Shown here one piece after another: positions 47,542 to 63,235 of a stretch of DNA of 64,000 nucleotides (the stretch's first letter is position 1; each line of letters opens with the position of its first letter). Position numbers and translations under genes: made by a program. A model generated the notes under the pieces. The model saw only the letters and a program-made list of their open reading frames with translations, was not told the DNA's origin and ran no database searches. This DNA comes from a candidate division WWE3 bacterium. Its GTDB lineage: Bacteria > Patescibacteriota > WWE3 > UBA101185 > UBA10185. The stretch spans positions 629,407 to 693,406 of the forward strand of contig WJKK01000001.1 of the NCBI GenBank assembly GCA_014729135.1, written 5' to 3'.

Positions 47542-47739
47542 ATGTACAATTGGTCAACGGATGAAAAGAAGCTTAAAAATCACCCTCAAAAACACAAACT
47601 CTGGAAACTGGAGCAACTAATCAACTTTGGCCTTGGAAAAGAAAGGTTAAACCGAAAAGATCTTAAAAGAAATCTGAAAAAACTAACAATAGACCCTCAA
47701 AAAAAGAAATATCTTCAATTCCTACTAAAAAAGGCCTAA
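47542..47739 (+). CDS. small basic protein, possible cognate partner (antitoxin-like) of the downstream AbiEii-like gene
   Basis: 65-aa Lys-rich ORF ending at the ATG of the 47739 gene (4-nt overlap ATGA). Confidence 0.25.
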   Translation: MYNWSTDEKKLKNHPQKHKLWKLEQLINFGLGKERLNRKDLKRNLKKLTIDPQKKKYLQFLLKKA

Positions 47740-48410: not shown

Positions 48411-48448
48411 GGAATGAGCACAATTGCCTCTTAAGTGAAGACAACAGC

Positions 48449-50074
48449 TTATTTACACTTATAAATTTTCCAATAGGGGAGGGATCTAAAGCGTATTTTT
48501 GTTTCAAGTGTGCAGTGGGAATAGTCGGGAGGTAGTTCTTCATGATTTGCAGCCACTAAATATTCCACAGTCCAACCGTTAGGTAAATCCTGATTTAACG
48601 TGTAGATCTTTCCTTTTACAAAAGGACGCAGCCGATGCACCTTGTTAGATGTAATTACTATTTTAAGATCAGAGGGATTGTCTTTGGAGTTTAAGTAATC
48701 ACCAACATTACTACATAACGAACAGCCAAACTGATCTTTCCCTTTGATGCTAGGATATAAAAGATAATTTGGAAAATAATAGGCAGTAGTGGAAACGGCA
48801 AGTAAAAAACTTGCTAATAAAAAGTATTTTTTATTCTTATTGGAGAAGGTTTTTTTTATTTGAACTAAAAGATACCCTCCAAAAAAAGCTAAAAAGGGAA
48901 TCAAAGGCAAAAGATAGCGATCCATTTTTTGAGCAACTAAAGACATCTGTACAAAATAGAAAAGTGCATAACAAAGAATTAAAATTGCTGATTTCTCGCG
49001 CGAGAAAACTTTATTAAAACTTCTTAATAATTCCTTAATATTCCTAGAGGATAAGTCAAACGAAGTAAAAATGTCACTAAGAAAATTACGAATATAAAGA
49101 GCAATACCTAAAAAAGCAGAAACCAGAAATACAAGAGTTAAATCTCTATACAGGGGCTCAAAGTAATCAAAAAACCCATTAAAAATTTCGGAGGAGGCAT
49201 CAGCACCATCGCGACCAACTCGCGCTAAAAACAATCCCTCGTTAATAAAAATAATTTTAAGGTTTTCCAGCGGTTCTATCCACATATCAGGGAAAACTGC
49301 TACAAAAGTAAAAGCACATGTAAAAAACCAAATTAAAACCGCTTTAAGATAAAACCAGAAATTACGACGTTGTGTAATGAAATCCGAAAAAAGTGCTAAA
49401 ACAAAATAAGGCAGTAAAAAAATAGCGGAGGATTTAGAAAGCAATGCCAATCCTGCGAAAACTCCCGAAAAAATAAGCCATTTCCATTTAGGTACTTCAG
49501 AAGAACTCAAAAAAAGTAAAAGCAAAAGTGCGGAAATTCCCATAAACGCCGTAACAGTGCTGTCTGCATGAAAATTCCGGGAAAGGCCAATATAAAAGGG
49601 TTGCAAACCGAACAACAAAACCGAGAAAAAAGCTAACTTCTTAGAAAAAAGCTTAGAAACAACTAAATAGTAAACCAAAATAAATCCCAAACTAACAAGA
49701 ATTAAAGGAGCAATTACAGCCGTATGAACCAAATGGAAAGTGTCGTAAGTCCATATTTGAGGGCGAAAACCATAATGCCACTCGTATAAATTCAAGAACG
49801 TCTCCAAACTTAACCCGGAAAGCCAATGAACCGTAATTCCCGGCTTGGGATTTTGCAAAGTTTCGCCCCAATCATGATCCTGAATTTCGGAAATAAACTC
49901 CTCTGTACGGGAATACCAAAACTGGGCATCATTGTTTATGGAGGCGCGTCCCAAACGATAGAAACTAAAGAAGGTTATTAAGAGGAAAAGAACAACAAAG
50001 AGTTTGTCGTAAAAGGAAAATTGAGATGCAAAAGTACTGACATTTTCCTTAAAGTTTTTGCAAAAAGAAACCAT
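48449..50074 (-). CDS. GT-C fold glycosyltransferase (ArnT/PMT-like)
   Basis: 541 aa polytopic with an ArnT-like N-terminal loop; C-terminal soluble domain of ~100 aa. Confidence 0.55.
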   Translation of the reverse strand: MVSFCKNFKENVSTFASQFSFYDKLFVVLFLLITFFSFYRLGRASINNDAQFWYSRTEEFISEIQDHDWGETLQNPKPGITVHWLSGLSLETFLNLYEWHYGFRPQIWTYDTFHLVHTAVIAPLILVSLGFILVYYLVVSKLFSKKLAFFSVLLFGLQPFYIGLSRNFHADSTVTAFMGISALLLLLFLSSSEVPKWKWLIFSGVFAGLALLSKSSAIFLLPYFVLALFSDFITQRRNFWFYLKAVLIWFFTCAFTFVAVFPDMWIEPLENLKIIFINEGLFLARVGRDGADASSEIFNGFFDYFEPLYRDLTLVFLVSAFLGIALYIRNFLSDIFTSFDLSSRNIKELLRSFNKVFSREKSAILILCYALFYFVQMSLVAQKMDRYLLPLIPFLAFFGGYLLVQIKKTFSNKNKKYFLLASFLLAVSTTAYYFPNYLLYPSIKGKDQFGCSLCSNVGDYLNSKDNPSDLKIVITSNKVHRLRPFVKGKIYTLNQDLPNGWTVEYLVAANHEELPPDYSHCTLETKIRFRSLPYWKIYKCK

Positions 50075-50143
50075 AAACTTAGTATACAGGACGCTTCTAA
50101 CAAGGAGAATTTAAAGAAAACAAACATGGTATAAAAGTATAGT

Positions 50144-51445
50144 ATGTTTAAAAAGGCAACATCTAAAATACCTCCTAAAAAGAACCTGGAAAAATCCACA
50201 AAAATCAAAAAAAGCGAACTTACAAAAAGCATAAGCATCACTCTTTTAATAACAACAATTCTAATTTCCTTAATCTTACGCCTAGTAATCTTTCAAGAAG
50301 AGGGAGGCGACCACCTAATCTATAAAAAAGCCGTTCTCGACTTTTGCGCCGGGGAAAATCCATACACCTACACATACAAATCCTTTACAAACAAACAAGC
50401 AAATTTGGACCGCGGCTATGCATACTTCCCAACGCTTTTGTACATTCTTACCTTTATGTGGAAGATTAACACCATCACTGCAACAGAAATGCCAACCGCC
50501 ATTCTCTGGAAAATTCCGGTACTTTTGGCAGATATGGGGATTGCTGCTCTCTTATACAACTACTTTGCTAAACGAAAAAAACATCTCTTGGCAACGCTAG
50601 CAACAAGCATTTGGCTCTTAAACCCCCACTTTTTAACCCGCTATGAATATACATTACTTGATCCCATTCAAGTCCTTTTCACATTTTTAGCCCTAAAATC
50701 CTTAAGCAAAAACTCTTACAAAACGGGAATCTTATATGCTCTGGCGGTAAGCACAAAGTTGATTCCGGCAATACTTTTTCCAATATTTTTCATTAAAACC
50801 AAAAATAAAGTGAAATTCCTAATGGTATTTGGCCTGGTATTTCTTCTAATCAGTTTGCCCTTTCTTACAAGTAGAAGCAATATTTTCTATTACATACAAG
50901 GAACGTTTCTGGTTCATGGAGAGAGATTTATACAAGGCAGGCCTTTCCTTTCTTTTCTGACACTTTTTACTCAGAAGGCAGGTCTATCTTTTTATCAGGA
51001 AAAATTTACAAGTCTTTTCTCTAAAATTGCTCTTTTATCAGGACCTATGTTAACAACGATTCTTCTCCTTAAAGACAAAAACAAGAACAAGTATTTATTA
51101 ACCGCAACTTCGTTTGCTCTTTATTTCCTTTTAACACCGGTTTTTAATAGGACGCATTTTTTATGGGGATTTCCTTTCTTTTTAATAGCCCTTTATCGAT
51201 TAACTAAGATAAAAAAACCAATGTGGACTTATGTTTCATGGGGAGGGCTTTACGCGGCGTTTTTCTTTTACCTTCTTTTTTGGTCAAAGGGTCTAAAGCC
51301 CCCTTCACAAGAACATCCTTATGTTTGGATGGATAATGCAGACTCCCTGGAGTTGGAGTGGCCCCTAAAACAGAGGAGCCGGCAAAAGTTTTATGAGTAT
51401 CGTGGGAAATTTTACAGATGGACTAATAGAGAAGAAAAGTTGTAA
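50144..51445 (+). CDS. GT-C fold glycosyltransferase, GT87/DUF2029-like
   Basis: DFCAGENPYTYTY, YAYFPTLLYILTF, HGERFIQGRPFLSF and PVFNRTHFLWGFPFFLIALY are shared with the 46128..47456 gene. Confidence 0.5.
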   Translation: MFKKATSKIPPKKNLEKSTKIKKSELTKSISITLLITTILISLILRLVIFQEEGGDHLIYKKAVLDFCAGENPYTYTYKSFTNKQANLDRGYAYFPTLLYILTFMWKINTITATEMPTAILWKIPVLLADMGIAALLYNYFAKRKKHLLATLATSIWLLNPHFLTRYEYTLLDPIQVLFTFLALKSLSKNSYKTGILYALAVSTKLIPAILFPIFFIKTKNKVKFLMVFGLVFLLISLPFLTSRSNIFYYIQGTFLVHGERFIQGRPFLSFLTLFTQKAGLSFYQEKFTSLFSKIALLSGPMLTTILLLKDKNKNKYLLTATSFALYFLLTPVFNRTHFLWGFPFFLIALYRLTKIKKPMWTYVSWGGLYAAFFFYLLFWSKGLKPPSQEHPYVWMDNADSLELEWPLKQRSRQKFYEYRGKFYRWTNREEKL

Positions 51446-51449
51446 ACCT

Positions 51450-53306
51450 TTAATCAGTAACGCAATAACCGCCAATAACAGGAGTCTTACCAAGTAAACT
51501 GTAAATTGGAGAAAAGTAAGAATTCTTGTAACTAAAATCCTCCTCATGCCACTCCAAAGGTTCAACGCCTGCCGTAGCTTTATTCTCAAACACCTCCGGG
51601 TTCTTATAGAAATAATTAAAGGTTCTACTGTTTTCTGTGCGATTTAAAAATGACAGTAAAATTCCGGGATTTTCCGGTTCAATTACATCTTTTTGAACAA
51701 AACATTCATAATTCAAGCCTCCCGGAATTGCTTCCATTACATCCGCGGGATTATCAAACCTGCCAACATGCATGTAACGCGTAAAGGAACCGCGAACAAA
51801 GACATTAGTAACAAGATTATGCTCCTCCTGAAATTTATAACCCAGCTTCCAGCGCAACTCCTCTTCGGTGTAAAAATCCCAAGTTAAAAACACTGTTACT
51901 ATAGCCAAGAAAGAAAGAGCAATAAACCCGCAGCTACGAGCATAAAAACCCTTTAGATCTACCAACAAACCACTCCTTGATAAGTAAACACCCACTAGAA
52001 GCGTCAAAAAAGGAAAGGCAGCAATAAAATAACGATCATAAAAATCGCTGGTTAAAAGGCTCCCAACAAAAACAACTCCAAAAAGGCCAAGAACAGTTAA
52101 ACTTAAAGAAAGCATTTGTAAATCAAAATCCTTGCGACAACAAGAGGCAATAAAACCTTCCAGCCAGTCAATAAATAAGTAAACTCCCAACAAAAAAGTG
52201 AATGATAAGTAAACGCTTAGACCCAACTTAAAAGGGATGTTGTCAAAAAGGCTAATCCAGTGGGTGAAATCGGATTTTGTGTAAAAACCTTCAATGTAAA
52301 AGACGTTGCCAACCGCAAAAATATCCTTTTGATAAAAAAGCGGAAAAATTAACAAAGCGGCAACAAGACTAATCCATTTAACTTTTACAGGAATCTTTTT
52401 GTAAGCCACATAAACAAGTGGTGAAAGGAAAAAGGCCACATAAGGAATTAAATAGGGATACATCTTAATTTGCTTATAGAAATTTTCTAAATCAACGGGA
52501 TTGCCTAAAATACGCGTTTCTGAAGCTTCAACATATTGTGGCCATTTTGTGTACAAGAACAAAAGGCTTATAAAAGGCACTACTAAAATAACGAGCTCCT
52601 TCCACTTAAACTTTTTTGTGTGAAATTGATCATGTGCCAAAACTAAAAAGTAGGCTATTAAAAAGACGAGGCCAAATTGGCGGATATAAAGACTAGCGCC
52701 TGCTAAAAGACTTGCTACTAAGAGGTGGGTAATATTTCGTTTTTCTAAATAGTGAAGGAAAAGGTAAAGACTCCAGATGGCAAAGGTTAAAAAGTAGATT
52801 TCGGTCATGTAGGAAAGAGCAGAGGTGAAAAAGAGGGGATTAAAGATGATTGTTAGTAGTGTTAGGGCTGTTAGGGTTTTTTTAGTTTTTTTGGGCTGCA
52901 GTTTTTGGAGGGTTTTGTAGGCACCAAATAAGAAAGCAAAGCTAAAAAGGATGGTTAAAATGCGGAGGGACAGGAAGCTAAATCCAAAAAGTTTTGTCCA
53001 GAGAATTCCTAAAAGGCCTTGCAGAACAAAGGCTGTGTCAATTAGGCGGTTTTTTGCAAAGATGCCCTGTGAAAAGAGGCGGGTGTGAATGTAGAAGTCC
53101 CAATCGTCGTTTACAGCGTGGTTTCCCCAAGGGCTTACAAGGAGGATGGCTAGGATGTAGAGAGCGAGGGTTATGGTTAAGGGGTTTTTGAGGATTGGGG
53201 GGAGGGAGGAGGTTTTTGGGATTTTGACTTTATGGAGAATTCTACAAAGGGGGTTTTGTGATTTTTGAAAGATTTTCATTTTTTTTAGTTTTGCAGGAAG
53301 TTTCAT
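51450..53306 (-). CDS. large polytopic membrane protein, GT-C-like
   Basis: 618 aa with 12 or more TM helices and a C-terminal soluble domain; loop HAVNDDWDFYIHTRLF near the N-terminus. Confidence 0.5.
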   Translation of the reverse strand: MKLPAKLKKMKIFQKSQNPLCRILHKVKIPKTSSLPPILKNPLTITLALYILAILLVSPWGNHAVNDDWDFYIHTRLFSQGIFAKNRLIDTAFVLQGLLGILWTKLFGFSFLSLRILTILFSFAFLFGAYKTLQKLQPKKTKKTLTALTLLTIIFNPLFFTSALSYMTEIYFLTFAIWSLYLFLHYLEKRNITHLLVASLLAGASLYIRQFGLVFLIAYFLVLAHDQFHTKKFKWKELVILVVPFISLLFLYTKWPQYVEASETRILGNPVDLENFYKQIKMYPYLIPYVAFFLSPLVYVAYKKIPVKVKWISLVAALLIFPLFYQKDIFAVGNVFYIEGFYTKSDFTHWISLFDNIPFKLGLSVYLSFTFLLGVYLFIDWLEGFIASCCRKDFDLQMLSLSLTVLGLFGVVFVGSLLTSDFYDRYFIAAFPFLTLLVGVYLSRSGLLVDLKGFYARSCGFIALSFLAIVTVFLTWDFYTEEELRWKLGYKFQEEHNLVTNVFVRGSFTRYMHVGRFDNPADVMEAIPGGLNYECFVQKDVIEPENPGILLSFLNRTENSRTFNYFYKNPEVFENKATAGVEPLEWHEEDFSYKNSYFSPIYSLLGKTPVIGGYCVTD

Positions 53307-53435
53307 CCTTTTTAATATACTATATTGTACTTATGTTTAGGGGCTAGTGAGATGTATGATTTTTGTTTAAACCTGCGAATGCTTTAAGAAGGTGATAAAA
53401 TTGCAAGTGCTTTGGAAACATGTGATTCCTTGTAG

Positions 53436-53512
53436 CGGGGTGTAGCTCAGTTGGCTAGAGTGCGCGCTTTGGGAGCGTGAGGTCCCGGGTTCGAGTCCCG
53501 GCACCCCGACCA
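53436..53512 (+). tRNA. tRNA-Pro (anticodon TGG)
   Basis: Acceptor cggggtg/caccccg, D-arm gctc-agttggcta-gagt, anticodon stem cgcgc/gcgtg with loop tttggga, T-arm ccggg-ttcgagt-cccgg, 3' acca. Confidence 0.8.
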
Positions 53513-53579
53513 GGGTTTTTAGTAGCTTGTTATTCCCATAACGGTAATAAATAATGCGGTTCTAAACCTTGATAACCAA

Positions 53580-53600
53580 ACAGGACAACTCGAACTTTTT
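53580..53600. repeat. Repeat B copy (ACAGGACAACTCGAACTTTTT) at the left edge of the GNAT cassette
   Basis: Identical core to 54299-54320; a related copy lies at 59994-60018. Confidence 0.55.
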
Positions 53601-53618
53601 CAGTGTTAAAATTAGTGT

Positions 53619-54215
53619 ATGGACATAAAATCACCGCAAAACTTAATGGAACTAACAGATGTATTCAGGTTTGTCGAAAAGGTGCTAAAATTGGAACCAG
53701 GCCATATAAGGGATCTCAGCTTTTACAAGAAGCAATTTGAAACAACACCCTACTTTTCTATTTATGTCGAAAAAGACAACGAAGTATTAGGGGCATTGCT
53801 GGCAGTGCCTCAGGGAAACGATGGACTGTTAGTAGGTGAAGTAGCTGTATCAGAAAAGGCTAGGGGAAAAGGAATAGGTTCCTTGTTACTTACCGAAATT
53901 GAAAAAAGAGCCAAGAAATACAAAAAGAAGAATGTCCTATTGGGATCACTAGAGACTGCAGAAGAATTTTACTTAAAGCACCAATATAAACCCAAATTAT
54001 TCATTCAGCTACAAGGTACCAATAGATTAAAAGAACTAAAGAATTTCGCCAAAGATAATTCTTATGAAAAAGATATTATTTGGGAAAATGAAGGAGATGG
54101 ATTTAGCAAAATAATAATCGAAACTTCAACCATAGACAAAAAACTTCAGGATAAGGCTAAGACATTATCTGGTGCACACACACAATACCTATTTTCAAAA
54201 AAGTTGCAAACATAG
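53619..54215 (+). CDS. GNAT family N-acetyltransferase
   Basis: VAVSEKARGKGIGSLLLTEIEKRAKK is the acetyl-CoA binding motif A (R/Q-x-x-G-x-G/A). Confidence 0.7.
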   Translation: MDIKSPQNLMELTDVFRFVEKVLKLEPGHIRDLSFYKKQFETTPYFSIYVEKDNEVLGALLAVPQGNDGLLVGEVAVSEKARGKGIGSLLLTEIEKRAKKYKKKNVLLGSLETAEEFYLKHQYKPKLFIQLQGTNRLKELKNFAKDNSYEKDIIWENEGDGFSKIIIETSTIDKKLQDKAKTLSGAHTQYLFSKKLQT

Positions 54216-54320
54216 TCCGCTATGGTCGACCAGGATTACAAACATTATTTCCTTACTGTAGCAACAATGAATACCGAGTTCTAAATTTTGGAGACCTAAC
54301 AGGACAACTCGAACTTTTTT
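54202..54320. repeat. composite attC-like junction: 31-nt Repeat A (AGTTGCAAACATAGTCCGCTATGGTCGACCA), a 66-nt spacer, and 22-nt Repeat B (ACAGGACAACTCGAACTTTTTT)
   Basis: Repeat A overlaps the GNAT stop codon. Repeat B overlaps the stop of the minus-strand 54319 gene. The outer termini AAAAAGTT..GTCC and GGAC..AACTTTTT are inverted. Confidence 0.55.
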
Positions 54321-55263
54321 ATTCAATAGTGGTAATTGGCCTACTCTGAGTTATATAAAATGTATTATCCCTATAAGCCCACTCAATATCTTGGGGCTTG
54401 TCGTAAAATGATTCTACTGTTGTACATATCCTTGCTAATTCCTGAATACGTCTATAATCCAACTTTTGACTATACTCTTCTTCGATTTCTTCCCATTCCA
54501 AGCCTTTTAGATCTTTGGGTAAAGCTAACTTTCTATCTTGTTCGGCAATATCAACACGCAAAACTACATCGTATTCCTTGTTATACTCATAAGAATCGGG
54601 GGTCAATTGGCCAGAAACTATACCCTCACCAAGTCCATATACTGCTTCAATAAGCATAATGTTCTTTTGCATTGAAATTGGATGAACTGTAAAGCATATG
54701 CCAGAAATGTCGCTTTGAACCATCTCTTGTACTACAACTGCCACCGCTCCATCTTTTGGTTTTATTTTCCTTTCTAAAGCATAAGTTATCGCTCTGGGGG
54801 AATAAAGAGATGCCCAACATTTTTTTATGTTGTCTATCAGATCTTCTTTAGTAGTGTTTAAATACGTTTCAAGTTCACCCGCCCAAGAATCTGTATCCGA
54901 ATCCTCAGAAGTGGCGGAACTACGGACAGCAACCAAATTCAGGTTTAGTGTATCGTACTGTGTCAAAATTTCATTCTTGAGCTTGTCGGCAATGCTTCCT
55001 TTTGTTATGGCCGCTTGGATTCTTTCACTGGCCTTGTTTATACCATCAAGATTACTTACAGTAACTTTTTCTAAAGAACTACTAATTACCTTTTCTAGTT
55101 CGTTAGTACTCAAAAACTTTTCAAAAGCTCTCGTTGTAACAACAAAACCTTGAGGTATAGGAATACCATACTGATACATCTTTGCCAGGGAAGCTCCCTT
55201 ACCACCAGTAAGTTTATTGTCTGTACACTTTGAATTTTCGAATATAAGAACTAGATCTTCCAT
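54319..55263 (-). CDS. PEP-utilising enzyme, N-terminal ATP-grasp (PPDK_N-like) domain protein
   Basis: KLTGGKGASLAKMYQYGIPIPQGFVVTTRAFEKFL matches the PEP synthase/PPDK nucleotide-binding N-domain. Confidence 0.65.
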   Translation of the reverse strand: MEDLVLIFENSKCTDNKLTGGKGASLAKMYQYGIPIPQGFVVTTRAFEKFLSTNELEKVISSSLEKVTVSNLDGINKASERIQAAITKGSIADKLKNEILTQYDTLNLNLVAVRSSATSEDSDTDSWAGELETYLNTTKEDLIDNIKKCWASLYSPRAITYALERKIKPKDGAVAVVVQEMVQSDISGICFTVHPISMQKNIMLIEAVYGLGEGIVSGQLTPDSYEYNKEYDVVLRVDIAEQDRKLALPKDLKGLEWEEIEEEYSQKLDYRRIQELARICTTVESFYDKPQDIEWAYRDNTFYITQSRPITTIE

Positions 55264-55265
55264 AT

Positions 55266-56768
55266 TTACTCCACAACCTCAACAATACCTTTTACGGCAT
55301 TAACTTTAACTTTATCTCCTGTTTTTATAATTTTTGTAGCGGATTTTGTACCTATTACACAAGGTATTTTAAGCTCCCTGGATACTATAGCTGCATGACT
55401 AGTAATACCACCCTCATTAGTAACTATCGCAGATGATTTTCTTATAGCAGGCATCAAACTTGGCCTAGTATTTCCAATAACTAGAATTGCACCTTCGGGC
55501 ATGCTTTTAACCTTCTTGTTAAAATCTTTATCTCCCCAGTTCATACAATAAGCTTTTCCTTCCACAACACCAGGAAAGGCAGTATTGCCCTCAATTTCTT
55601 TAATGGCATCGTAATTAGGCTTAGGTACTAGTTTGTTGAATTCAGCTATTGCACTGTCTCCATAAACAGACTTAGTAAGAACATCATTCTTTACTAAGAA
55701 TAGGTAGGCTTTGTAGCGATCCTTTGTCTTAAAGCTATCTTCAATATCTTCTTTACTAAAATCAATCTGAACTAGTTCACCAGGAGATAACGCCAACAGT
55801 GTATATGCAGGGATTTGCGTTAGCCTGGAAATTTTATAAACGAGTTCTCTCAACATCCTAAAGTACGCTGACCAAAGAATTCGTAGCTCAAGACGGTAGC
55901 GACCTAAATTTGCTAAACAGTCAGCTACATAAACTGTAGGCATTTCCAAACGGTGCTTATTTATAAATTCTTCTTTATTCACTCTGGCATTCTCGACAGC
56001 TTTGCTAAGCTCTGTTACTTTCTCGGACAAATTAACCTTAGAATCCAAACAATCCCTAAGAAGACCTATATAGTGCTGCAAATCCCAGTGGTCTGCTCCT
56101 TCATTTCCACTTAAGTGGCCATATTTTTTTATATGACTGTCTAGGGCATCTTTAAATTCCTTATAATCGGTAATCGTTTCTAGATTTATATCAGGCAAAA
56201 CATCTTCATATTTAAGTAGCAGTTTAAAAAAATCCTCCTCTTCATGATGCAACATAGATTTCTCCACAGGCGCTGTTAAAACAGCCACTGCTTCAGATAA
56301 ATCATCCTGTTCTAAATCATTAGCTAGATGATCTTCCAATCCTTTTGTAAATTGTGGGTTGGTCATGTTAAAAAAGGCAAACACATCAATTAGGGCCTGG
56401 GAAATATTAGCTAGAAGTTTTTGAATCACCGCCAAATCTTCCACATCATCAAACTGGGTCCTGAACAAGATTTGATCTTCCTTCAACTTCTTCTGTTTTT
56501 TCTTTACAGAATTAATAAATTCTCTATATTGTTCTTTATCCTGAAAATAGCTATAACCAAACTTCCCAGCTGCCTCCAAATCCTCTGGGGAGTGATAGGC
56601 TTCCAATACCTCATTCCTTGCAAATAGCAGCATACCTTTTGAAAAATACCCAAACAACTCTTTTTGCCTATCTACACAAAAAATTGTCCCATGTCCCATT
56701 TCAAATACGGGCGCATCTGCAACTTCCCAGATTTTTTCCCATTTTAGTGGCTCCTTTTTATCTACCAT
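55266..56768 (-). CDS. PEP-utilising enzyme mobile (phosphohistidine swivel) domain protein with a ~370-aa unknown N-terminal region
   Basis: C-terminal GGITSHAAIVSRELKIPCVIG is the phospho-His swivel-domain signature. It is separated by 2 nt from the downstream PPDK_N gene. Confidence 0.65.
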   Translation of the reverse strand: MVDKKEPLKWEKIWEVADAPVFEMGHGTIFCVDRQKELFGYFSKGMLLFARNEVLEAYHSPEDLEAAGKFGYSYFQDKEQYREFINSVKKKQKKLKEDQILFRTQFDDVEDLAVIQKLLANISQALIDVFAFFNMTNPQFTKGLEDHLANDLEQDDLSEAVAVLTAPVEKSMLHHEEEDFFKLLLKYEDVLPDINLETITDYKEFKDALDSHIKKYGHLSGNEGADHWDLQHYIGLLRDCLDSKVNLSEKVTELSKAVENARVNKEEFINKHRLEMPTVYVADCLANLGRYRLELRILWSAYFRMLRELVYKISRLTQIPAYTLLALSPGELVQIDFSKEDIEDSFKTKDRYKAYLFLVKNDVLTKSVYGDSAIAEFNKLVPKPNYDAIKEIEGNTAFPGVVEGKAYCMNWGDKDFNKKVKSMPEGAILVIGNTRPSLMPAIRKSSAIVTNEGGITSHAAIVSRELKIPCVIGTKSATKIIKTGDKVKVNAVKGIVEVVE

Positions 56769-56841
56769 AGGAACATTCTACACCAATAAGTAACAAGCTA
56801 GATAGAAATAACACTTTTCATGTATGTATTTTGACTGAAAA

Positions 56842-56872
56842 AGTTGCAAACATAGTCCGCTATGGTCGACCA
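56842..56872. repeat. Repeat A copy (AGTTGCAAACATAGTCCGCTATGGTCGACCA), identical to 54202-54232
   Basis: 31/31 nt identity read from the sequence, plus a shared AAAAAG prefix. Confidence 0.6.
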
Positions 56873-57031
56873 TACTTGATGGTTTTTTCTTCAGCATCCT
56901 TTAAAACCTTATATAACGGACTAATCTCGCAGTTCGCAAAAATGATCAAAAACAAGGCAAATAACACTTTGCAACCAAAAATCTATATATAACACTAATA
57001 AATTGGTTCTAGTCTTGGGTAGCGTTTCTTT

Positions 57032-57727
57032 TCAGAGAGGACTTTTAATATTTCTTAATTTCGGATTTGTAACTTGAGTATATCTTTGTGTGGTTCTAAT
57101 ATTTTGATGACCGAGTAATTCTTGAACATACCTAATATCAACTCCGTTTTCTAATAAGTGAGTTGCAAAACTATGTCGTAGTGAATGAAATGTCGCCTCC
57201 TTCTTAATTTCGGCGTTTCTCATAGCATTAGTAAAAATTTTTTGTGCTGTACGAGTTGTAAGTTTTCCCCCTCGTTCACTTGGAAAAACATATTCGTTTG
57301 GCTTCCCAGAATTAATTATCATTTTTAGATCATTTTTAATCTTCTCTGGGATAATTGTTATTCTATCCTTTTTCCCCTTGGCTTTCTTAATATGAAGTGT
57401 AAGATTATTAATATCTACGTCTTTGACTTTTAAGTTGACAACTTCACTAACTCTTAATCCTGCTCCATATGCTACGGAAAGGATCAATCTATGCTTATTA
57501 TTATTTGTTACTTCAGTCAATCTTTTGATTTCTTTACGATTTAGTATTACTGGAAGACTTTTGTTGTGTTTCGCAGATTTAATATCTATTTTGGAGGAAG
57601 TTTTTACAACGTTATAGTAATAAAACTTAATTGAATTCAAATATAGATTCCTTGTCTTAGCAGAGAGTCCTTTATCTGAACAGGTGAGTAGAAAGTTTCG
57701 TATGTTATCGATATCTAACTGCTTCAA
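57032..57727 (-). CDS. tyrosine-type site-specific recombinase/integrase (short, 231 aa)
   Basis: GLRVSE (catalytic Arg), HSLRHSFATHLL (H-x-x-R) and LGHQNIRTTQRYTQV (Tyr nucleophile). TTG start. Much shorter than IntI/XerC. Confidence 0.75.
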   Translation of the reverse strand: MKQLDIDNIRNFLLTCSDKGLSAKTRNLYLNSIKFYYYNVVKTSSKIDIKSAKHNKSLPVILNRKEIKRLTEVTNNNKHRLILSVAYGAGLRVSEVVNLKVKDVDINNLTLHIKKAKGKKDRITIIPEKIKNDLKMIINSGKPNEYVFPSERGGKLTTRTAQKIFTNAMRNAEIKKEATFHSLRHSFATHLLENGVDIRYVQELLGHQNIRTTQRYTQVTNPKLRNIKSPL

Positions 57728-58024
57728 ATTGGTTTTCTTGAACTGAAAGTATTTTTGAATTCCATTCGTGTAGCTTTTGATTGTTTTTTGGCTGTAATTG
57801 CGAATTTTTAACTCTCGTACAGTTGCTGTTGTTTCTTTTTTGATCTTTTTGTTTCTTATGTTATGATGTCGATAATTAATTTAGAGTGTTATATTAGAAG
57901 CAGTTCGCATAGTATATGAAATTCTGTACACATTACAAAAATACTTCGGATAGTAACGAGTTAAATGAAATATTCTTCTGAAAATTATTTTTATTCTGTA
58001 TTTTTGACACTTTTTTTAACCTAA

Positions 58025-59116
58025 ATGACGGCCGAAGTGATAAGACCAACCCAAGATTTTTCCGATATCCTCAATATTCCTAAAGATGAACTGGAAGACT
58101 CAGTTTGGAGAAACTTTTGGGGTGGCTTGTATGCTGTACGAGAAGAATCTCCAAATATAGCTCGGTTATTCCAAGAAGCTTTAGTCAATCGTAACAAATT
58201 TATTCCAACATCCATTGCTAACTATAGACACCTGATACCACGACCATTCAACTATCTCTTATTGCAAGAAGATCTTGATATAGAAATCGACCGTCTTTCA
58301 GCTATTGATTGGCAAAAGCATATCCGTCGTATTACAACTACCAAATCACGAGAACTATCCAACCTACTCGAGACAAAAACCTTGGCAGTATTTAACAGCA
58401 AACGCTATCTTCCAATATTGTTTTTGAGAGATATGTTAGGTTTTAACACAAATCGATGTGCTGATTTAGGATGCAGTGTGAACTTTGGTTTCACTAAATT
58501 AACCCAAATAACCCCCGATGCGTTCGATACCATTGTAAACCAATTAGACCATAATACTACACCCCAGCCTCTTGATGTTCCTGAATACGAGATTGGTTTT
58601 GACTATCAACAAAGAGATTTGTTATGGACTCAAGCATGTTATTTCCCTCAATATATTCAACATATGCGAAAGAAATTAGGTGAGCTTGAGGACGTATATC
58701 AATCTCAGAATAATCATTTTGAAGCTGTCGATTTGACAAAAAATATTGTTAGTCAAAAACCATCTCTTGAAGAAATTATCGGAACGATGGATGTAGTACA
58801 TGCAAGTCTTGTTTTTTACTTACTTGATGAAGAAGGTCGGAAAGCTTTTACTGATAACGCTTTGAGATTGTTAAAAGAAGGTGGTGCATTTATTCAGACC
58901 GACATGTTTGATCCAGATCTTAAACTAGATAGTGCACGCTCTGTTAGAACTGTAGTGAAATTTAAAGAAAGTGACTATAAATTCTCCCATGGATTAGAAC
59001 TGATTGAGTATGCACACTCAGCTACCAAAGACCATGGACCGTCTGATAGTTGCAATGTGTGGTATCCAGGAAAAGACTGGAACGAACTTAAAAAAAGTGT
59101 CAAAAATACAGAATAA
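58025..59116 (+). CDS. hypothetical protein (possible methyltransferase-like C-terminal region)
   Basis: 363 aa. ALRLLKEGGAFIQTDMF resembles a SAM-MTase LLKPGG segment, but no clear motif I. Confidence 0.35.
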   Translation: MTAEVIRPTQDFSDILNIPKDELEDSVWRNFWGGLYAVREESPNIARLFQEALVNRNKFIPTSIANYRHLIPRPFNYLLLQEDLDIEIDRLSAIDWQKHIRRITTTKSRELSNLLETKTLAVFNSKRYLPILFLRDMLGFNTNRCADLGCSVNFGFTKLTQITPDAFDTIVNQLDHNTTPQPLDVPEYEIGFDYQQRDLLWTQACYFPQYIQHMRKKLGELEDVYQSQNNHFEAVDLTKNIVSQKPSLEEIIGTMDVVHASLVFYLLDEEGRKAFTDNALRLLKEGGAFIQTDMFDPDLKLDSARSVRTVVKFKESDYKFSHGLELIEYAHSATKDHGPSDSCNVWYPGKDWNELKKSVKNTE

Positions 59117-59573
59117 AAATAATTTTCAGAAGAATACATCATTTATTTTTCTCTCTATTGGATTAGTCATAGTACTAATTTATATTGTAGGAGCTATATT
59201 GATAAATCTCGCATTTAAACCGGAAGATAATCCTTATAATTGGAATATAGAAAATTGCACTAAAATAGTAAATCAATACAAAAACGAGAAAAATAAAATT
59301 GATAATTTTGAAGATGGATTCCGTGTTGATCCAGGTCCTCCATTCAGAATCGTTTTCATTAACTATAGAGGTGTAGTTGATAATTGGAATGGTATTATCT
59401 ATGATCCTTCTAAAGAGATAGAAAAAATTATCAATTACGATCAGGTTGGTTGGGAAAGTTGGTGGAATGATCCAAATCTAAACTCATTAAAAAGTATATT
59501 TGGCGGAGATGTTGCTGGTTGTAAAAAAATGGATGATTGGGGTGATGACTGGTATTTTTGCTCATTCACCTGA
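59004..59573 (+). CDS. small membrane-anchored hypothetical protein (true start probably downstream of the overlap with the 58025 ORF)
   Basis: TM helix FIFLSIGLVIVLIYIVGAILINLAF, then a Trp/Asn-rich soluble part. Confidence 0.3.
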   Translation: MSMHTQLPKTMDRLIVAMCGIQEKTGTNLKKVSKIQNKNNFQKNTSFIFLSIGLVIVLIYIVGAILINLAFKPEDNPYNWNIENCTKIVNQYKNEKNKIDNFEDGFRVDPGPPFRIVFINYRGVVDNWNGIIYDPSKEIEKIINYDQVGWESWWNDPNLNSLKSIFGGDVAGCKKMDDWGDDWYFCSFT

Positions 59574-59808
59574 TAATACAAAATTCTTCAACAAAATAAA
59601 TAAGGATGAGGCGGATATAGAAAAAGTAGTGGATTGGATTACACAGAGAGGCTATGGGGAAGATAGGGAATTTCAATTTCACTCATCTACAGACTTAATA
59701 CAACGCAGACAAAACGGTTATTATTTAGAAGAGACCCTAACTTCCTGAAAAAATGCAGAGACGGTACATATAGATGAAAAGGGTAGAATTATCTAGCAAT
59801 CATGTAAA

Positions 59809-60018
59809 AGTTACAAACATAGTCCGCTATGGCCGACCATTTGTCGTTGCGAAGCAACTACAAATGCTTAACAAAATACAAGCACCCTTCCTTTTCTTTA
59901 AAATGGGGGCGTAGTATTTTGTTATGCCTGCAAGTGTTGCAAAGCAACCTTGCAGAACATCGATTAAGAGCAAAGCATTTTTGACGAGCTAATCAGAACA
60001 ACCCAAACTTTTTCAATG
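59809..60018. repeat. attC-like junction: Repeat A variant (AGTTACAAACATAGTCCGCTATGGCCGACCA), two GTTGC-NNN-GCAAC palindromes, and a Repeat B variant (CAGAACAACCCAAACTTTTTCAATG)
   Basis: 29/31 identity to Repeat A; palindromes gttgcgaagcaac (59846-59858) and gttgcaaagcaac (59936-59948). Confidence 0.5.
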
Positions 60019-60031
60019 ATAAACTGTAAAT

Positions 60032-60802
60032 ATGAAAATAACACCTAACAGAATTAGAAAACTGGTGGAAATAGCTTATGTAATAGAGCCACTCTTGGAT
60101 AAAGAGGACTGTACAACAAGGTTTATAGATCTTCCTGGTAAGACAATATATGACTTCATACTTGCTGGATTAAATGTGGGGGAAGTATTTGAAGATTACG
60201 CAAGAAGTGTTCAAGAGCATAATAACAAGGAACTTTTATCCCATTTTGAGAGAGCAGTAAAACTTAGCAATGAATACAAGCATGAAAAGCTAATCAACAT
60301 AGGACTCTTAGAATTTATGTTCGTTGCAGTCAAATCCCGACTTATCTCAAATACATTAGAAAAAAGTTTAGACAACATTAAAAAGGTGCTACAGGATACT
60401 TCTAATGAGGATGTACGAAATGAATACAAGGTCTTTGTTGGCGCACTATCTACATCGGAAAAAGACACAAAAAAATCCTTATGGATTGAAACATATAAAG
60501 ATTTTTTGGGGTTTAATAATCTTCACGAGTACTATTTACACGCTGAAGAAGCACTCTCTAAGGATAAGACTACTGCTAATTACCAGGTAGCTCATGAGTT
60601 TACAGAGGGATTTCCTATATTGAAACAATATGTGAACAGCATTGAAAAAAGTAAGGGACTAATAAAAAGTATTGAAAACACGTATGAAAAACTCCATAAA
60701 GAGAACCCCCAAGTTAAAATAGGTATACTGGCAGATTTTAGTGCTGTAGCAATATTTTTGTACTTAAGCTACCAAGACCCCTCAACATACGTCCTTAACT
60801 AA
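60032..60802 (+). CDS. hypothetical protein
   Basis: 256-aa ORF bounded by junction repeats; no motif recognised. Confidence 0.35.
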   Translation: MKITPNRIRKLVEIAYVIEPLLDKEDCTTRFIDLPGKTIYDFILAGLNVGEVFEDYARSVQEHNNKELLSHFERAVKLSNEYKHEKLINIGLLEFMFVAVKSRLISNTLEKSLDNIKKVLQDTSNEDVRNEYKVFVGALSTSEKDTKKSLWIETYKDFLGFNNLHEYYLHAEEALSKDKTTANYQVAHEFTEGFPILKQYVNSIEKSKGLIKSIENTYEKLHKENPQVKIGILADFSAVAIFLYLSYQDPSTYVLN

Positions 60803-60820
60803 AGTAGAGTTGCCAAAAAA

Positions 60821-60853
60821 AGTTGCAAGCATAATCAGCTATAGGCGATCAAA
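60821..60853. repeat. degenerate Repeat A copy (AGTTGCAAGCATAATCAGCTATAGGCGATCAAA)
   Basis: Shares AAAAAGTTGCAA..CATA.TC.GCTAT.G.CGA..A with Repeat A. Confidence 0.4.
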
Positions 60854-60886
60854 TCTTCACTTTTACTTTTTGTTATAATTTTTAAT

Positions 60887-61318
60887 ATGAAGTACGAATT
60901 TTACATAGCCGCCAGATGGAGAAATAAGGAAAACGTTTTAAAGCTTGCCCGAGGGTTAGAATCACGCAAGAAAATCGCCTACAATTTTATTGAAGGTGAT
61001 GGCGAACAATATGAATTCAAAGAACAAGAAAAAATTTTAGAACCTGAGGAATTAATGGAAAAATTTGAGAGCATTCCTAATTGGAAAAATGATTCAAAAG
61101 TAAAAGAGATATTTGAGGTAGACATACAAGCTATTAAAAATTCCGAGAAGTTGATCCTTTTGCTTCCTGCAGGAAAATCTGCTCACATAGAGGCTGGAAT
61201 AGCCTATGGAATGGGTAAAGAGTGTATTGTTATCGGGGAACAAAAAGAAGCGGAAAGTTTGTACCTCATATTCTCCAAATTTTACGAAACTATCGAAGAT
61301 TTTGTTAAATCAGTATAG
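60887..61318 (+). CDS. hypothetical protein (possibly nucleoside 2-deoxyribosyltransferase-like fold)
   Basis: 143 aa; LILLLPAGKSAHIEAGIAYGMGKECIVIG weakly resembles NDT-family C-terminal motifs. Confidence 0.3.
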   Translation: MKYEFYIAARWRNKENVLKLARGLESRKKIAYNFIEGDGEQYEFKEQEKILEPEELMEKFESIPNWKNDSKVKEIFEVDIQAIKNSEKLILLLPAGKSAHIEAGIAYGMGKECIVIGEQKEAESLYLIFSKFYETIEDFVKSV

Positions 61319-61373
61319 TTGTAAACACAACCCATTGTACTACATGGTGTCGTGAAACAACCCCAACTCCTCC
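61318..61373. repeat. short degenerate junction (AGTTGTAAACACAACCC ... AAACAACCCCAACTCCTCC) resembling Repeat A + Repeat B
   Basis: Partial matches to both repeat cores between two cassette genes. Confidence 0.3.
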
Positions 61374-61390
61374 AATGCTAAAATCAACGC

Positions 61391-61960
61391 ATGTCAGAAA
61401 AAATCCAAAAACTAGAAAACAAACTAACCGAAATAATGTCTCGATGGGGCGGTTTAGATCATGGTCAAGAAACAAGAGAATGGCTCTTAAAGATCGATCC
61501 TCAATCCCCTTGGCAATTACAAATAGCTGCTTTTGCTCATGATATTGAAACTGCAATACCCTACATTGAAGGCATGACTCCAAAAAGGTTCTCTAGAGAA
61601 GATTGTGAAAACTACGACGAGTACAAGGGAAGACATGCTAAAAGAAGCGCACAAGTAATTGAACACATAATGACAACCTACAACTTTCCTAAGGAAGATA
61701 TTAAAAAAGTCTGCAATGCAATAGAAAAACGTGAGGTAGGAGGAGACACAGATAGCGATTTAGTTAGAGACGCCGACAGTATAAGATGGTTCGATAAAAA
61801 AGGACATCCTAAATATATTGAAAATTACGGAATTGATGCTGCTAAAGAGAAAGCTCTGTGGATGTATGAGAGAGCAACGAAAAAAACAAGGGAATTGATT
61901 GATTCGCTACCCTATGATAAAAGAATCAAGAACTACATAGCTCAAAAGGACGCCTCATAA
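61391..61960 (+). CDS. HD domain protein
   Basis: LQIAAFAHDIETAIPY contains the H..HD metal-binding motif. Confidence 0.45.
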   Translation: MSEKIQKLENKLTEIMSRWGGLDHGQETREWLLKIDPQSPWQLQIAAFAHDIETAIPYIEGMTPKRFSREDCENYDEYKGRHAKRSAQVIEHIMTTYNFPKEDIKKVCNAIEKREVGGDTDSDLVRDADSIRWFDKKGHPKYIENYGIDAAKEKALWMYERATKKTRELIDSLPYDKRIKNYIAQKDAS

Positions 61961-62001
61961 AAAGTGCTGTGACGGTATGCATTACAGTCAACCAGTAGAT
62001 A

Positions 62002-62538: not shown

Positions 62539-62647
62539 GGTTTGATTTTAGCAGAGAAGAATTGAAGACAGGCGCTGCTTAGGTTCAGCAAATAAAAACA
62601 GCGCTCTAACAGCACAGCCCGGATTTCTCTAATGTTAAAATGGCAAC

Positions 62648-63199: not shown

Positions 63200-63235
63200 G
63201 GACCTCACACATATAAAAAGCACGGGGAAACTCCA

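What the first reader, a model, noticed from the sequence alone, without database searches (positions are those of the whole stretch)
54319..56768. Split, permuted PEP-utilising enzyme carried as a cassette
Two adjacent minus-strand genes, 2 nt apart, encode two separate pieces. The first (55266..56768) is an unknown ~370-aa region fused to a phosphohistidine swivel domain (GGITSHAAIVSRELKIPCVIG). The second (54319..55263) is a PPDK_N-type ATP-grasp nucleotide-binding domain. In PEP synthase, PPDK and rifampin phosphotransferase, the ATP-grasp domain is N-terminal and the swivel His domain central or C-terminal, on a single polypeptide. Here the order is reversed and the protein is split. This suggests a two-component phosphotransferase acting on an unknown substrate; antibiotic or metabolite phosphorylation is a possibility. 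It sits inside the repeat-bounded region.
Basis: partly seen in the sequence, partly recalled or inferred. Interest (0 to 1): 0.55.

Follow-up and report, generated by a model that had tools for sequence, protein, structure and literature searches.

The report
Two-subunit RPH-like dikinase on cassette
Two adjacent genes in a candidate-phylum (WWE3) bacterium encode the two halves of an ATP-driven, rifampin-phosphotransferase-like kinase for an unknown substrate; the split design is already known from other bacteria, but this pair rides on a small repeat-bounded mobile cassette and belongs to a large, apparently undescribed family of ultra-small bacteria and archaea in which one ATP-binding subunit often sits beside many very different substrate-binding subunits.

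The parts
55266..56768 (-). Gene A (500 aa): substrate-binding and phospho-His carrier subunit. Residues 1-385 form an RPH-type substrate-binding domain and residues 390-500 form the swivel domain.
55614..56768 (-). A, residues 1-385: small beta-sheet followed by a long helical bundle. This is the putative substrate-binding and second phosphotransfer site, carrying the clade-conserved residues H212, K215-Y216, R292-L-E294-L-R296, W299 and R351.
   Evidence: Secondary structure. Clade alignment. The profile aligns A positions 196-495 to RPH residues 553-866. The domain diverges fast: only 99 hits at E<1e-3 among 1.84 billion representatives.
55269..55601 (-). A, residues 390-500: phosphohistidine swivel domain. 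The motif is T450-N-E-G-G-I-T-S-H458, and the catalytic His458 codon lies at 55395-55397.
   Evidence: Pfam. PDB PEP synthase 8a8e at E 1e-20. The His is invariant in alignment A2 and present in all 256 complete swivel modules surveyed.
54319..55263 (-). Gene B (314 aa): stand-alone ATP-grasp (PPDK_N) nucleotide-binding subunit.
   Evidence: PF01326 at E 4e-90. PDB hits: RPH ATP-grasp 5hv6 at E 8e-51 and HpeI 9GOJ at E 6.5e-46. It retains K22 (GGKG), R114 (VRSSAT), E120/D121, D292/E294/W295 and Q306-S-R308-P, each at least 90% conserved across 32 B-type domains. The top 120 homologues are all stand-alone proteins.
54198..54232 (+). Junction repeat copy 1 (AAAAAGTTGCAAACATAGTCCGCTATGGTCGACCA), marking the boundary downstream of B.
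   Evidence: It is identical to copy 2.
56838..56872 (+). Junction repeat copy 2, marking the boundary upstream of A. With copy 1 it defines a 2,640-bp unit.
   Evidence: A 100% identical copy occurs in an unrelated metagenome contig, L082, downstream of a tRNA-Pro.
59805..59839 (+). Junction repeat copy 3 (91% identical).
60817..60851 (+). Junction repeat copy 4 (83% identical).
53436..53512 (+). tRNA-Pro(TGG), the probable anchor of the cassette array. Its 3' end ...CCCCGACCAGG parallels the repeat end ...GGTCGACCAGG.
   Evidence: ARAGORN and Rfam. Junction comparison. L082 shows the same layout, with an 18-nt duplicate of the tRNA 3' end.
53559..53600 (+). 42-nt direct repeat D8, copy 1. 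It lies 46 nt after the tRNA 3' end.
54278..54319 (+). 42-nt direct repeat D8, copy 2 (86% identical). It lies 45 nt after junction repeat 1 and abuts B's stop codon.
57032..57727 (-). Xer/XerA-like tyrosine recombinase in the neighbouring unit. It is the candidate enzyme for cassette movement.
   Evidence: PF00589 at E 7e-45. NF040815 XerA at E 6e-57, below the curated cut-off, and the integron-integrase models match only around the IntI-specific insert. The conserved N-terminus extends about 40 aa upstream without a canonical start codon.
53619..54215 (+). GNAT acetyltransferase, the cargo of the first unit of the array (tRNA side).
   Evidence: Pfam. Only weak NCBIfam similarity to ArsN2 and AAC(6').

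Best explanation
Genes A and B encode a two-subunit, ATP-dependent dikinase of the rifampin-phosphotransferase (RPH) type. B is the ATP-grasp subunit. It binds Mg-ATP and transfers the beta-phosphate to His458 on the swivel domain at A's C-terminus, releasing AMP and Pi. The swivel domain then returns to A's own helical substrate-binding domain and passes the phosphate to a bound acceptor, most likely a hydroxyl group of a small molecule. The domain identities, the fold, the intact catalytic motifs, and the conserved, translationally coupled split are shown here. The catalytic cycle and the transient A:B contact are inferred from RPH and HpeHI. The acceptor is unknown. The pair sits on a 2.6-kb repeat-bounded cassette beside a GNAT cassette, and the substrate domain evolves very fast. 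I therefore infer an accessory role: modifying or inactivating an environmental or host-derived compound (a xenobiotic or antibiotic), or scavenging a metabolite, rather than core metabolism. The pair is one 1:1 instance of a CPR/DPANN family in which one conserved ATP-grasp module probably serves many divergent substrate/His modules.
Against: There is no biochemical evidence for this protein pair, and no substrate can be assigned. The genes adjacent to the window pair give no pathway clue. A's middle domain is only 14-16% identical to RPH, and neither Pfam nor NCBIfam recognises it. The residue-level equivalence of R292/E294/R296 to RPH Arg666/Glu667/Lys670 is unverified, because the HMM register differs by a few residues. 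No multimer model of A:B could be run, and the monomeric fusion model has uncertain domain packing (pTM 0.63). Some family members are fused to XRE HTH domains, and TrmB regulators recur nearby, which leaves room for a regulatory rather than purely enzymatic role. A's swivel carries the PEP-synthase-type Thr at position -2 from the His, where RPH and HpeH have Met, so the family is not simply RPH-like.
Confidence: 0.8

Rival explanations
1. The pair is a pseudogene or assembly artefact: a single fused RPH/PEP-synthase-like gene broken by a stop or frameshift and rearranged.
For: Fused homologues of 790-840 aa do exist in related lineages.
Against: A frameshift cannot place the C-terminal part upstream of the N-terminal part. 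B's 120 best homologues are all stand-alone. Four orthologous loci from other organisms have the same A-then-B order with overlapping or abutting stop and start codons. Both ORFs are full length with every conserved residue intact. An SD-like GGAG precedes B's ATG.
Confidence: 0.01
2. The pair is a genuine rifamycin-inactivating phosphotransferase (antibiotic resistance) in split form.
For: RPH is the closest solved fold. The pair is carried on a mobile cassette next to a GNAT with faint AAC(6')-like similarity. CPR 'rph-like' genes have been listed in an in-silico resistome survey (PMC8651080).
Against: NCBIfam RIF_Ptrans_rph scores are 54.8 bits for A and 228.6 bits for B, against a cut-off of 999. 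A's substrate domain is 14-16% identical to RPH and about 45 residues shorter. The family's substrate domains differ from one another as much as from RPH (22-25% identity), which argues for many different substrates. Stogios et al. assign rifampin activity only to RPH clade A.
Confidence: 0.05
3. The pair is a phenol-type catabolic kinase orthologous to PpsAB, CreHI or HpeHI, initiating degradation of an aromatic compound.
For: The subunit architecture and gene order are identical. B matches HpeI at E 6.5e-46.
Against: The NCBIfam PRK08296 models match A only over the swivel domain, at 92 bits against a cut-off of 578. By their architecture (about 600 aa with a C-terminal swivel) these models probably represent the PpsA/HpeH type, but I did not verify that. 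HpeH, CreH and PpsA share about 45% identity with each other and have Met where A has Thr. No carboxylase, dephosphorylating or ring-cleavage genes lie nearby. CPR bacteria are not known to catabolise aromatic compounds (general knowledge).
Confidence: 0.05
4. The pair is a regulatory phosphorelay rather than a small-molecule kinase. A would sense a ligand through its helical domain and pass phosphate to a protein partner or control transcription, in the manner of PTS enzyme I.
For: Some A-family members carry an N-terminal XRE HTH domain (P0079, P0086, P0107). An XRE gene precedes the pair in L001. TrmB-type regulators recur next to arrays in 9 loci. The swivel carries the PEP-synthase-type regulatory Thr.
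Against: The only structural relative of the helical domain is a small-molecule-binding domain. The window unit has no HTH gene. HAD, His-phosphatase and HD phosphohydrolase neighbours fit small-molecule phospho-ester chemistry at least as well.
Confidence: 0.08
5. This rival concerns the repeats only. The 35-nt repeats would be conserved transcription terminators or regulatory elements, not recombination sites, so the 'cassette' appearance would be incidental.
For: Read on the minus strand, each copy resembles a weak terminator, with a 6-pair stem including G-T pairs followed by a T-run. Copy 1 lies downstream of B.
Against: All four copies have one orientation while the flanking genes lie on both strands. 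The hairpin is no more stable than in shuffled sequence for 3 of the 4 folds. The 35-nt sequence is 100% conserved in contig L082, where the tRNA-Pro is only 83% identical and the cargo differs, and there it follows a duplicated tRNA 3' end typical of site-specific integration. A tyrosine recombinase sits inside the array. The orthologous pair in L083 is bracketed at the same spacing by a different repeat.
Confidence: 0.2

Closest known systems
Two-component small-molecule dikinases HpeHI (Rhodococcus), CreHI (Corynebacterium), PpsAB phenylphosphate synthase (Thauera/Aromatoleum) and AcvAB (Sphingobium)
   Same: The subunit composition is the same: one subunit of substrate-binding domain plus C-terminal swivel His domain, and one stand-alone ATP-grasp subunit. 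The gene names (hpeH/hpeI, ppsA/ppsB) suggest the substrate/His gene also comes first in those systems, but I did not check their gene order. The TxxGGxxxH motif is shared. RPH is the only full-length structural relative of the large subunit. B matches the HpeI crystal structure 9GOJ at E 6.5e-46.
   Different: A is about 100 aa shorter than HpeH or PpsA. Its substrate domain is not detected by the NCBIfam PRK08296 models, which probably represent that clade. It has Thr rather than Met two residues before the catalytic His. There is no catabolic operon around it, and no PpsC-like third subunit was seen. The host is a CPR bacterium, the gene pair is on a mobile cassette, and the wider family forms multi-paralogue arrays and multi-module fusions not reported for the phenolic kinases.
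Rifampin phosphotransferase RPH (Listeria; PDB 5FBS, 5FBT, 5FBU, 5HV1)
   Same: All three domains have the same folds. Natural fusions of the window's family are collinear with RPH (ATP-grasp, substrate domain, swivel) and match it at E 9e-38. The presumed ping-pong dikinase mechanism through a swivelling phospho-His is the same.
   Different: RPH is a single 867-aa polypeptide, whereas here there are two proteins. Substrate-domain identity is only 14-16%. Scores lie far below the NCBIfam equivalog cut-offs. The rifampin-contact residues were not tested.
PEP synthase / pyruvate phosphate dikinase
   Same: The ATP-grasp and swivel domains are the closest sequence relatives. For B, PEP synthase NF005057 scores 283 bits. 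For A's swivel, 8a8e scores E 1e-20 and the GGxTSHAAIV motif includes the regulatory-type Thr.
   Different: No PEP/pyruvate-binding TIM-barrel domain (PF02896) is present in either protein or nearby. The swivel is C-terminal rather than central. The scores are less than half the curated cut-offs. The pair therefore cannot make PEP by the known mechanism.
Integron gene cassettes, Xer-dependent dif modules, and tRNA-targeted integrative islets
   Same: There is an array of small units of 1-3 genes (0.7-3 kb), separated by a conserved direct repeat, with a tyrosine recombinase present and a tRNA gene at one end.
   Different: The repeat is only about 33 nt and does not form an attC-type bulged hairpin. 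The recombinase lacks the IntI-specific insert and lies inside the array rather than at its head. The cargo genes lie on both strands. Only ...CGACCA(GG) is shared with the tRNA 3' end in this window.

Membership tests
Two-component RPH-like small-molecule dikinase (architecture class of HpeHI/CreHI/PpsAB) | A stand-alone ATP-grasp (PPDK_N) subunit with intact nucleotide and Mg-binding residues | tested here: met
   PF01326 at E 4e-90 covers 295 of 314 aa. The HpeI structure 9GOJ matches at E 6.5e-46. K22, R114, E120/D121, E294 and Q306/R308 are conserved.
Two-component RPH-like small-molecule dikinase (architecture class of HpeHI/CreHI/PpsAB) | A second subunit made of an RPH-type (RIF-binding-like) substrate domain followed by a C-terminal swivel domain | tested here: met
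Two-component RPH-like small-molecule dikinase (architecture class of HpeHI/CreHI/PpsAB) | A catalytic His within the T/S-x-x-G-G-x-x-x-H motif | tested here: met
   A has T450-N-E-G-G-I-T-S-H458. The motif definition comes from PMC12167813. The His is invariant in the family.
Two-component RPH-like small-molecule dikinase (architecture class of HpeHI/CreHI/PpsAB) | The two genes are adjacent, co-oriented and conserved as a pair | tested here: met
   The gap is 2 nt. The same pair occurs in L001, L003, L083 and L084.
Two-component RPH-like small-molecule dikinase (architecture class of HpeHI/CreHI/PpsAB) | Both subunits are required for ATP-dependent phosphorylation of a small molecule, giving AMP and Pi | not testable with these tools
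   This needs enzyme assays.
PpsA/HpeH/CreH sequence clade (phenolic-substrate kinases) | About 45% mutual identity over the whole large subunit, or a match to the NCBIfam PRK08296 models above their cut-off | tested here: not met
   The best PRK08296 model scores 92 bits against a cut-off of 578, and aligns only A residues 389-500. A has Thr where that clade has Met. That PRK08296 represents this clade is my inference from its architecture and was not verified.
Rifampin phosphotransferase (RPH) | NCBIfam equivalog NF041857 or NF000283 score above cut-off, on a single three-domain polypeptide | tested here: not met
   A scores 54.8 bits and B 228.6 bits against a cut-off of 999, and there are two polypeptides.
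Rifampin phosphotransferase (RPH) | Phosphotransfer residues Arg666, Glu667 and Lys670 in the substrate domain | tested here: inconclusive
   A's clade conserves R292-L-E294-L-R296 on the equivalent long helix. HMMER places this motif within about 6 residues of RPH 660-670. The register was not verified by a residue-level superposition.
PEP synthase / PPDK | A C-terminal PEP/pyruvate-binding TIM-barrel domain (PF02896) and a central swivel domain | tested here: not met
   There is no PF02896 hit in A, B or their neighbours. Scores against TIGR01418 and NF005057 are 89-283 bits, against cut-offs of 598-740.
Classical integron | An IntI integrase with the IntI-specific additional domain | tested here: not met
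   TIGR02249 scores 186 bits against a cut-off of 265, and the matches (3-139 to model 40-178, and 156-231 to model 252-327 of PRK15417) skip the insert.
Classical integron | attC sites that fold as imperfect hairpins of 60-140 nt | tested here: not met
   The conserved core is about 33 nt. Folding energies are not distinguishable from shuffles for 3 of the 4 folds.
tRNA-anchored site-specific integrative cassette array | A tRNA gene at one end, a tyrosine recombinase, and direct repeats at unit junctions related to the tRNA 3' end | tested here: inconclusive
   The tRNA-Pro, the recombinase and four junction repeats are present. Only CGACCAGG is shared with the tRNA end in the window. L082 shows an 18-nt duplicate of the tRNA 3' end plus the same repeat. 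Recombination itself was not shown.

The most novel reading that the evidence does not exclude
[quoted passage not shown] In this system one conserved ATP-grasp module would charge the swivel His of many paralogous carrier proteins, each with its own rapidly diversifying substrate-binding domain. In the surveyed loci, substrate domains share a median 22-25% identity and swivel domains 49-61%. The modules occur as tandem arrays of 5-10 genes with at most one ATP-grasp gene in view, or as polyproteins with one ATP-grasp and at least 8 swivel modules (at least 3,703 aa). Single pairs also move as small repeat-bounded cassettes. This would amount to a combinatorial repertoire for phosphorylating many different small molecules, such as host metabolites, antibiotics or envelope precursors, in organisms with otherwise minimal metabolism.
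Probability: 0.45. Interest if true: 0.75.

Novelty: new member of a known kind. Interest (0 to 1): 0.48.

Why it matters
The window locus shows that the two-component RPH-like dikinase design is not confined to its known examples. Until now it had been characterised only in aromatic-compound catabolism by Actinobacteria and Proteobacteria. Here it occurs in a CPR bacterium, on a small mobile cassette, in a distinct sequence family that no curated model recognises. CPR and DPANN organisms have tiny genomes, yet many of them devote 5-10 tandem genes, or single genes of more than 10 kb, to this family. That implies strong selection for phosphorylating many different compounds. Finding the substrates could reveal how these episymbionts detoxify, scavenge or modify molecules from their hosts or competitors, and whether the family is a reservoir of antibiotic-modifying enzymes. 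The proposed one-to-many arrangement also offers a natural test of how a swivel-domain carrier recognises a shared ATP-grasp partner in trans. Separately, the tRNA-Pro-anchored array of units bounded by about 33-nt repeats is a candidate integron-like gene-capture platform in CPR bacteria.

Tried and rejected
1. PADLOC: no defence-system model matches A, B or their neighbours, so I did not pursue an anti-phage reading, despite Shedu and methylase neighbours in one related locus.
2. PHROGs: only a generic 'kinase' family matched, through the ATP-grasp and swivel domains.
3. Viral contigs: 14 loci matched, all through the swivel domain only and none with the middle domain. The repeat is absent from viral contigs. 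There is no evidence for a phage origin.
4. Rfam over the whole window found only 4 tRNAs and nothing at the repeats.
5. The attC/integron reading was rejected.
6. Single-sequence searches of PDB and NCBIfam with A detect only the swivel domain. A profile and a structure model were needed to identify the N-terminal domain.
7. The exact-match metagenome scan for the repeat returned only one contig, so the breadth of the cassette system remains unknown.
8. The closest orthologous locus, L001, shows no bracketing repeats, so cassette carriage is not universal.
9. Eight full-text literature searches found no description of CPR/DPANN arrays of this family (one search found the HpeHI paper). The library covers open-access papers only, so absence is not proof.
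11. No other copy of A or B exists in the 64-kb window.
Full report
OBSERVATION. Both minus-strand ORFs are present exactly as described: A at 55266..56768 (500 aa) and B at 54319..55263 (314 aa). A's TAA stop is followed by two bases and then B's ATG. A GGAG motif lies within A's last codons, which suggests translational coupling. Pfam places PF00391 (PEP-utilizers, the swivel domain) at A residues 424-494 (E 5e-24) and finds nothing in A residues 1-390. It places PF01326 (PPDK_N) across nearly all of B (E 4e-90). The window carries no other copy of either gene. The best protein match identifies the source as a candidate division WWE3 (CPR) genome on an 864-kb contig. NCBI annotates A as 455 aa there, but residues 5-45 are conserved in homologues, so the 500-aa reading is preferred.

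IS THE SPLIT REAL? Yes. A fused homologue, P0014 (793 aa), aligns to B over its residues 14-317 (42% identity) and to A over residues 322-791 (32% identity). The window pair therefore corresponds to one cut at the domain boundary, with the two genes in swapped order. A frameshift cannot produce that arrangement. The 120 best homologues of B are all stand-alone PF01326-only proteins of 304-336 aa from many CPR lineages, at 45-57% identity. The nearest relatives of A (41-46% identity) in four other loci (L001, L003, L083, L084) are each followed by a B gene, with stop and start codons abutting or overlapping by up to 4 nt. B retains every residue that is at least 90% conserved across 32 B-type domains: K22 in GGKG, R114 in VRSSAT, E120/D121, D292/E294/W295 and Q306-S-R308-P. 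A retains the invariant His458 and every residue conserved in its own clade.

COMPARISON WITH WHAT IS KNOWN. This subunit composition has been described. Dexter et al. [quoted passage not shown] HpeI is the ATP-grasp subunit (crystal structure 9GOJ) and HpeH carries the substrate-binding and swivel domains. The same holds for CreHI and for phenylphosphate synthase PpsAB. An H581Q substitution abolishes HpeH activity, and HpeH alone catalyses phosphotransfer between substrates. B matches 9GOJ at E 6.5e-46, and A carries the T/SxxGGxxxH motif those authors define (T450-NEGGITS-H458). The RPH mechanism is described by Stogios et al. (PMC4844700). His attacks the beta-phosphate of ATP at the ATP-grasp site. 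The swivel domain then moves more than 40 A to the substrate domain, where Arg666, Glu667 and Lys670 position the phosphate for transfer. I infer the same cycle here, in trans.

The window's proteins are nevertheless not members of the characterised clades. The NCBIfam PRK08296 models (about 600 aa with a C-terminal swivel, probably the PpsA/HpeH type) match A only over the swivel domain, at 92 bits against a cut-off of 578. The RPH equivalog scores 55 and 229 bits against a cut-off of 999. PEP synthase models score less than half their cut-offs, and no PEP/pyruvate-binding domain (PF02896) is present. A has Thr two residues before the catalytic His, as in PEP synthase, where RPH and HpeH have Met. 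A's clade conserves R292-L-E294-L-R296 on the long helix. HMMER aligns this within a few residues of RPH 660-670, but I could not verify the register.

THE WIDER FAMILY. I fetched 79 loci from GTDB species genomes using the family's conserved swivel motifs. Together with two loci fetched earlier this made 81 loci, and I labelled their ORFs with my own HMMs for the middle domain, the swivel domain and PPDK_N. Thirty-one of the 81 loci carry three or more A-type genes within the roughly 16-kb region sampled. Examples are L015 with 10, L061 with 9 plus one B gene at the end, L043 and L080 with 6 plus one B, and L025 with 5 plus one B. Eighteen loci carry fusions, including one ATP-grasp followed by 3-4 modules (L011, 2,029 aa; L021; L051). 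One ORF of at least 3,703 aa has one ATP-grasp and at least 8 swivel modules (L044). Hosts are CPR bacteria (Woese-, Nealson-, Taylor-, Uhr- and Saccharibacteria, among others) and DPANN archaea (Nano-, Woese- and Micrarchaeota, and Iainarchaeum). Adjacent A/B pairs occur in both orders: 5 as A then B, and 6 as B then A.

Within arrays, the substrate domains share a median 22-25% identity while the swivel domains share 49-61%. All 256 complete swivel modules keep the catalytic His. Searched alone against 1.84 billion representative proteins, A's middle domain finds only 99 proteins at E<1e-3, which confirms very rapid divergence. Recurrent neighbours of these arrays are TrmB-type regulators (9 loci), HAD phosphatases (7), branch-1 histidine phosphatases (6), Pta (5), cytidylyltransferase-like proteins (4) and HD hydrolases (4). 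L084 places the orthologous pair among envelope glycosylation genes with a histidine phosphatase next door. The only related literature I found is a bulk in-silico listing of 'rph-like' genes in CPR genomes (PMC8651080). No paper describing the arrays or the multi-module fusions turned up. The search covered open-access papers only.

THE CASSETTE. An identical 35-nt direct repeat lies at 54198-54232 and at 56838-56872, bracketing the pair at a spacing of 2,640 bp. Copies at 91% and 83% identity lie at 59805 and 60817. All four are in one orientation and have sharp boundaries, and shuffled sequence gives 0 expected matches. The array begins just after tRNA-Pro (53436-53512). The sequence following the tRNA 3' end (...CGACCAGG, 46 nt, then a 42-nt element) is mirrored after repeat 1 (...CGACCAGG, 45 nt, then an 86%-identical copy of that element). 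The four units carry, in order: a GNAT acetyltransferase; the dikinase pair; a Xer/XerA-like tyrosine recombinase together with an inserted IS-like element; and an orphan 256-aa ORF.

An unrelated metagenome contig, L082, has a tRNA-Pro, then an 18-nt duplicate of that tRNA's 3' end, then different cargo, then the same 35-nt repeat at 100% identity, although its tRNA is only 83% identical. In L083 the orthologous pair is bracketed by a different 30-nt repeat at nearly the same spacing, 2,613 bp, and no such repeat appeared in 200 shuffles. The array is not a classical integron. The repeat does not form an attC-like hairpin, and the recombinase lacks the IntI-specific insert and lies inside the array. 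A rival reading is that the repeats act as weak minus-strand terminators. That reading fits poorly with their single orientation among genes on both strands, and with their conservation next to a duplicated tRNA end. That recombination occurs at these repeats is an inference and was not shown.

MECHANISM AND CONFIDENCE. The following are shown here: the domain identities, the fold, the intact catalytic motifs, the conserved split and coupling, and the bracketing repeats. The following are inferred: B phosphorylates His458 of A from the beta-phosphate of ATP, releasing AMP and Pi; A then transfers the phosphate to a ligand bound in its helical domain; and the unit moves by site-specific recombination. 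The acceptor is unknown. The cassette context, the neighbouring GNAT and the hypervariable substrate domain favour an accessory role in detoxification, modification or scavenging. My confidence in the two-component dikinase reading is 0.8. The rivals are a pseudogene or artefact (0.01), a true rifampin phosphotransferase (0.05), a phenol-type catabolic kinase (0.05) and a regulatory phosphorelay (0.08).

VERDICT. The locus itself is a new, divergent member of a known kind, the two-component RPH-like dikinase. Two points go beyond the known systems. The first is that the pair is carried on a small repeat-bounded cassette at a tRNA gene in a CPR bacterium. The second is that it belongs to a large CPR/DPANN family whose arrays and polyproteins suggest one ATP-grasp module serving many divergent substrate modules.

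Noticed in passing
window 57962-59145: This is an IS-like mobile element. It has 58-nt terminal inverted repeats (97% complementary) around an orphan 363-aa ORF (58025-59116) with no hit in Pfam, NCBIfam, PHROGs or PADLOC. The only homologue among 5.8 billion proteins (86% identity) lies on JGI contig L085. That contig shares exactly the IR-bounded 1,186 nt with the window (90.6% identity) and nothing else. The ORF is a candidate novel transposase.
   Followed up: yes
window 57032-57961 (minus strand): The conserved N-terminal SAM-like region of the Xer-like recombinase continues about 40 aa upstream of the first ATG/GTG/TTG start codon, with no canonical start in frame. The gene either uses an unusual start codon or is N-terminally truncated.
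   Followed up: partly
loci L010, L015, L061, L080, L025, L035, L043; fusions in L011, L021, L044, L051, L059: These loci hold tandem arrays of 5-10 paralogous 'substrate domain + swivel' genes with at most one PPDK_N gene in view. Some hold single ORFs with one PPDK_N and 3 to at least 8 swivel modules (L044 is at least 3,703 aa). All modules keep the catalytic His, and the substrate domains share only about 23% identity.
   Followed up: yes
proteins P0079, P0086, P0107; L001 5699-5920: Some A-family proteins carry an N-terminal XRE-type HTH domain, and an XRE gene precedes the orthologous pair in a Woesebacteria locus. This hints at a regulatory link.
   Followed up: no
L084 9458-9904; L002 5184-6050; loci listed: HAD, histidine-phosphatase and HD phosphohydrolase genes, TrmB regulators, Pta and cytidylyltransferase-like genes recur next to the dikinase arrays. 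L084 embeds the pair among PMT_2, GT2 and Polysacc_synt envelope genes. The window also has three large membrane-protein genes just upstream of tRNA-Pro (48449-53306), two of which hit PMT_2.
   Followed up: partly
L083 7173-7219 and 10155-10201: A second pair of 47-nt direct repeats (83% identity, spacing 2,982 bp) brackets three other genes in the same contig that carries the repeat-bracketed orthologous A-B pair. That contig may also be a cassette array.
   Followed up: no
window 19435, 23883, 24046, 29411, 46230, 46306: There is a family of 31-nt palindromic elements (GGGACAGTCCTCTTAGAGGACTGTCCC), with six copies in intergenic positions. They look like REP or terminator elements.
   Followed up: no
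window 60887-61318: A 143-aa ORF immediately after the last junction repeat resembles a nucleoside 2-deoxyribosyltransferase (phrog_12607 at E 4e-11, with a weak match to Pfam PF15891).
   Followed up: no
window 36773-36839 and 36903-36969: A 67-nt tandem-like direct repeat (85% identity), with internal inverted repeats, lies just downstream of tRNA-Gly (36570-36646).
   Followed up: no
window 46000-64000 versus 16000-45000: The part of the window holding the glycosyltransferase genes and the cassette array has lower G+C (0.33-0.39) than the central part (0.40-0.45). This is consistent with accessory or acquired DNA.
   Followed up: no
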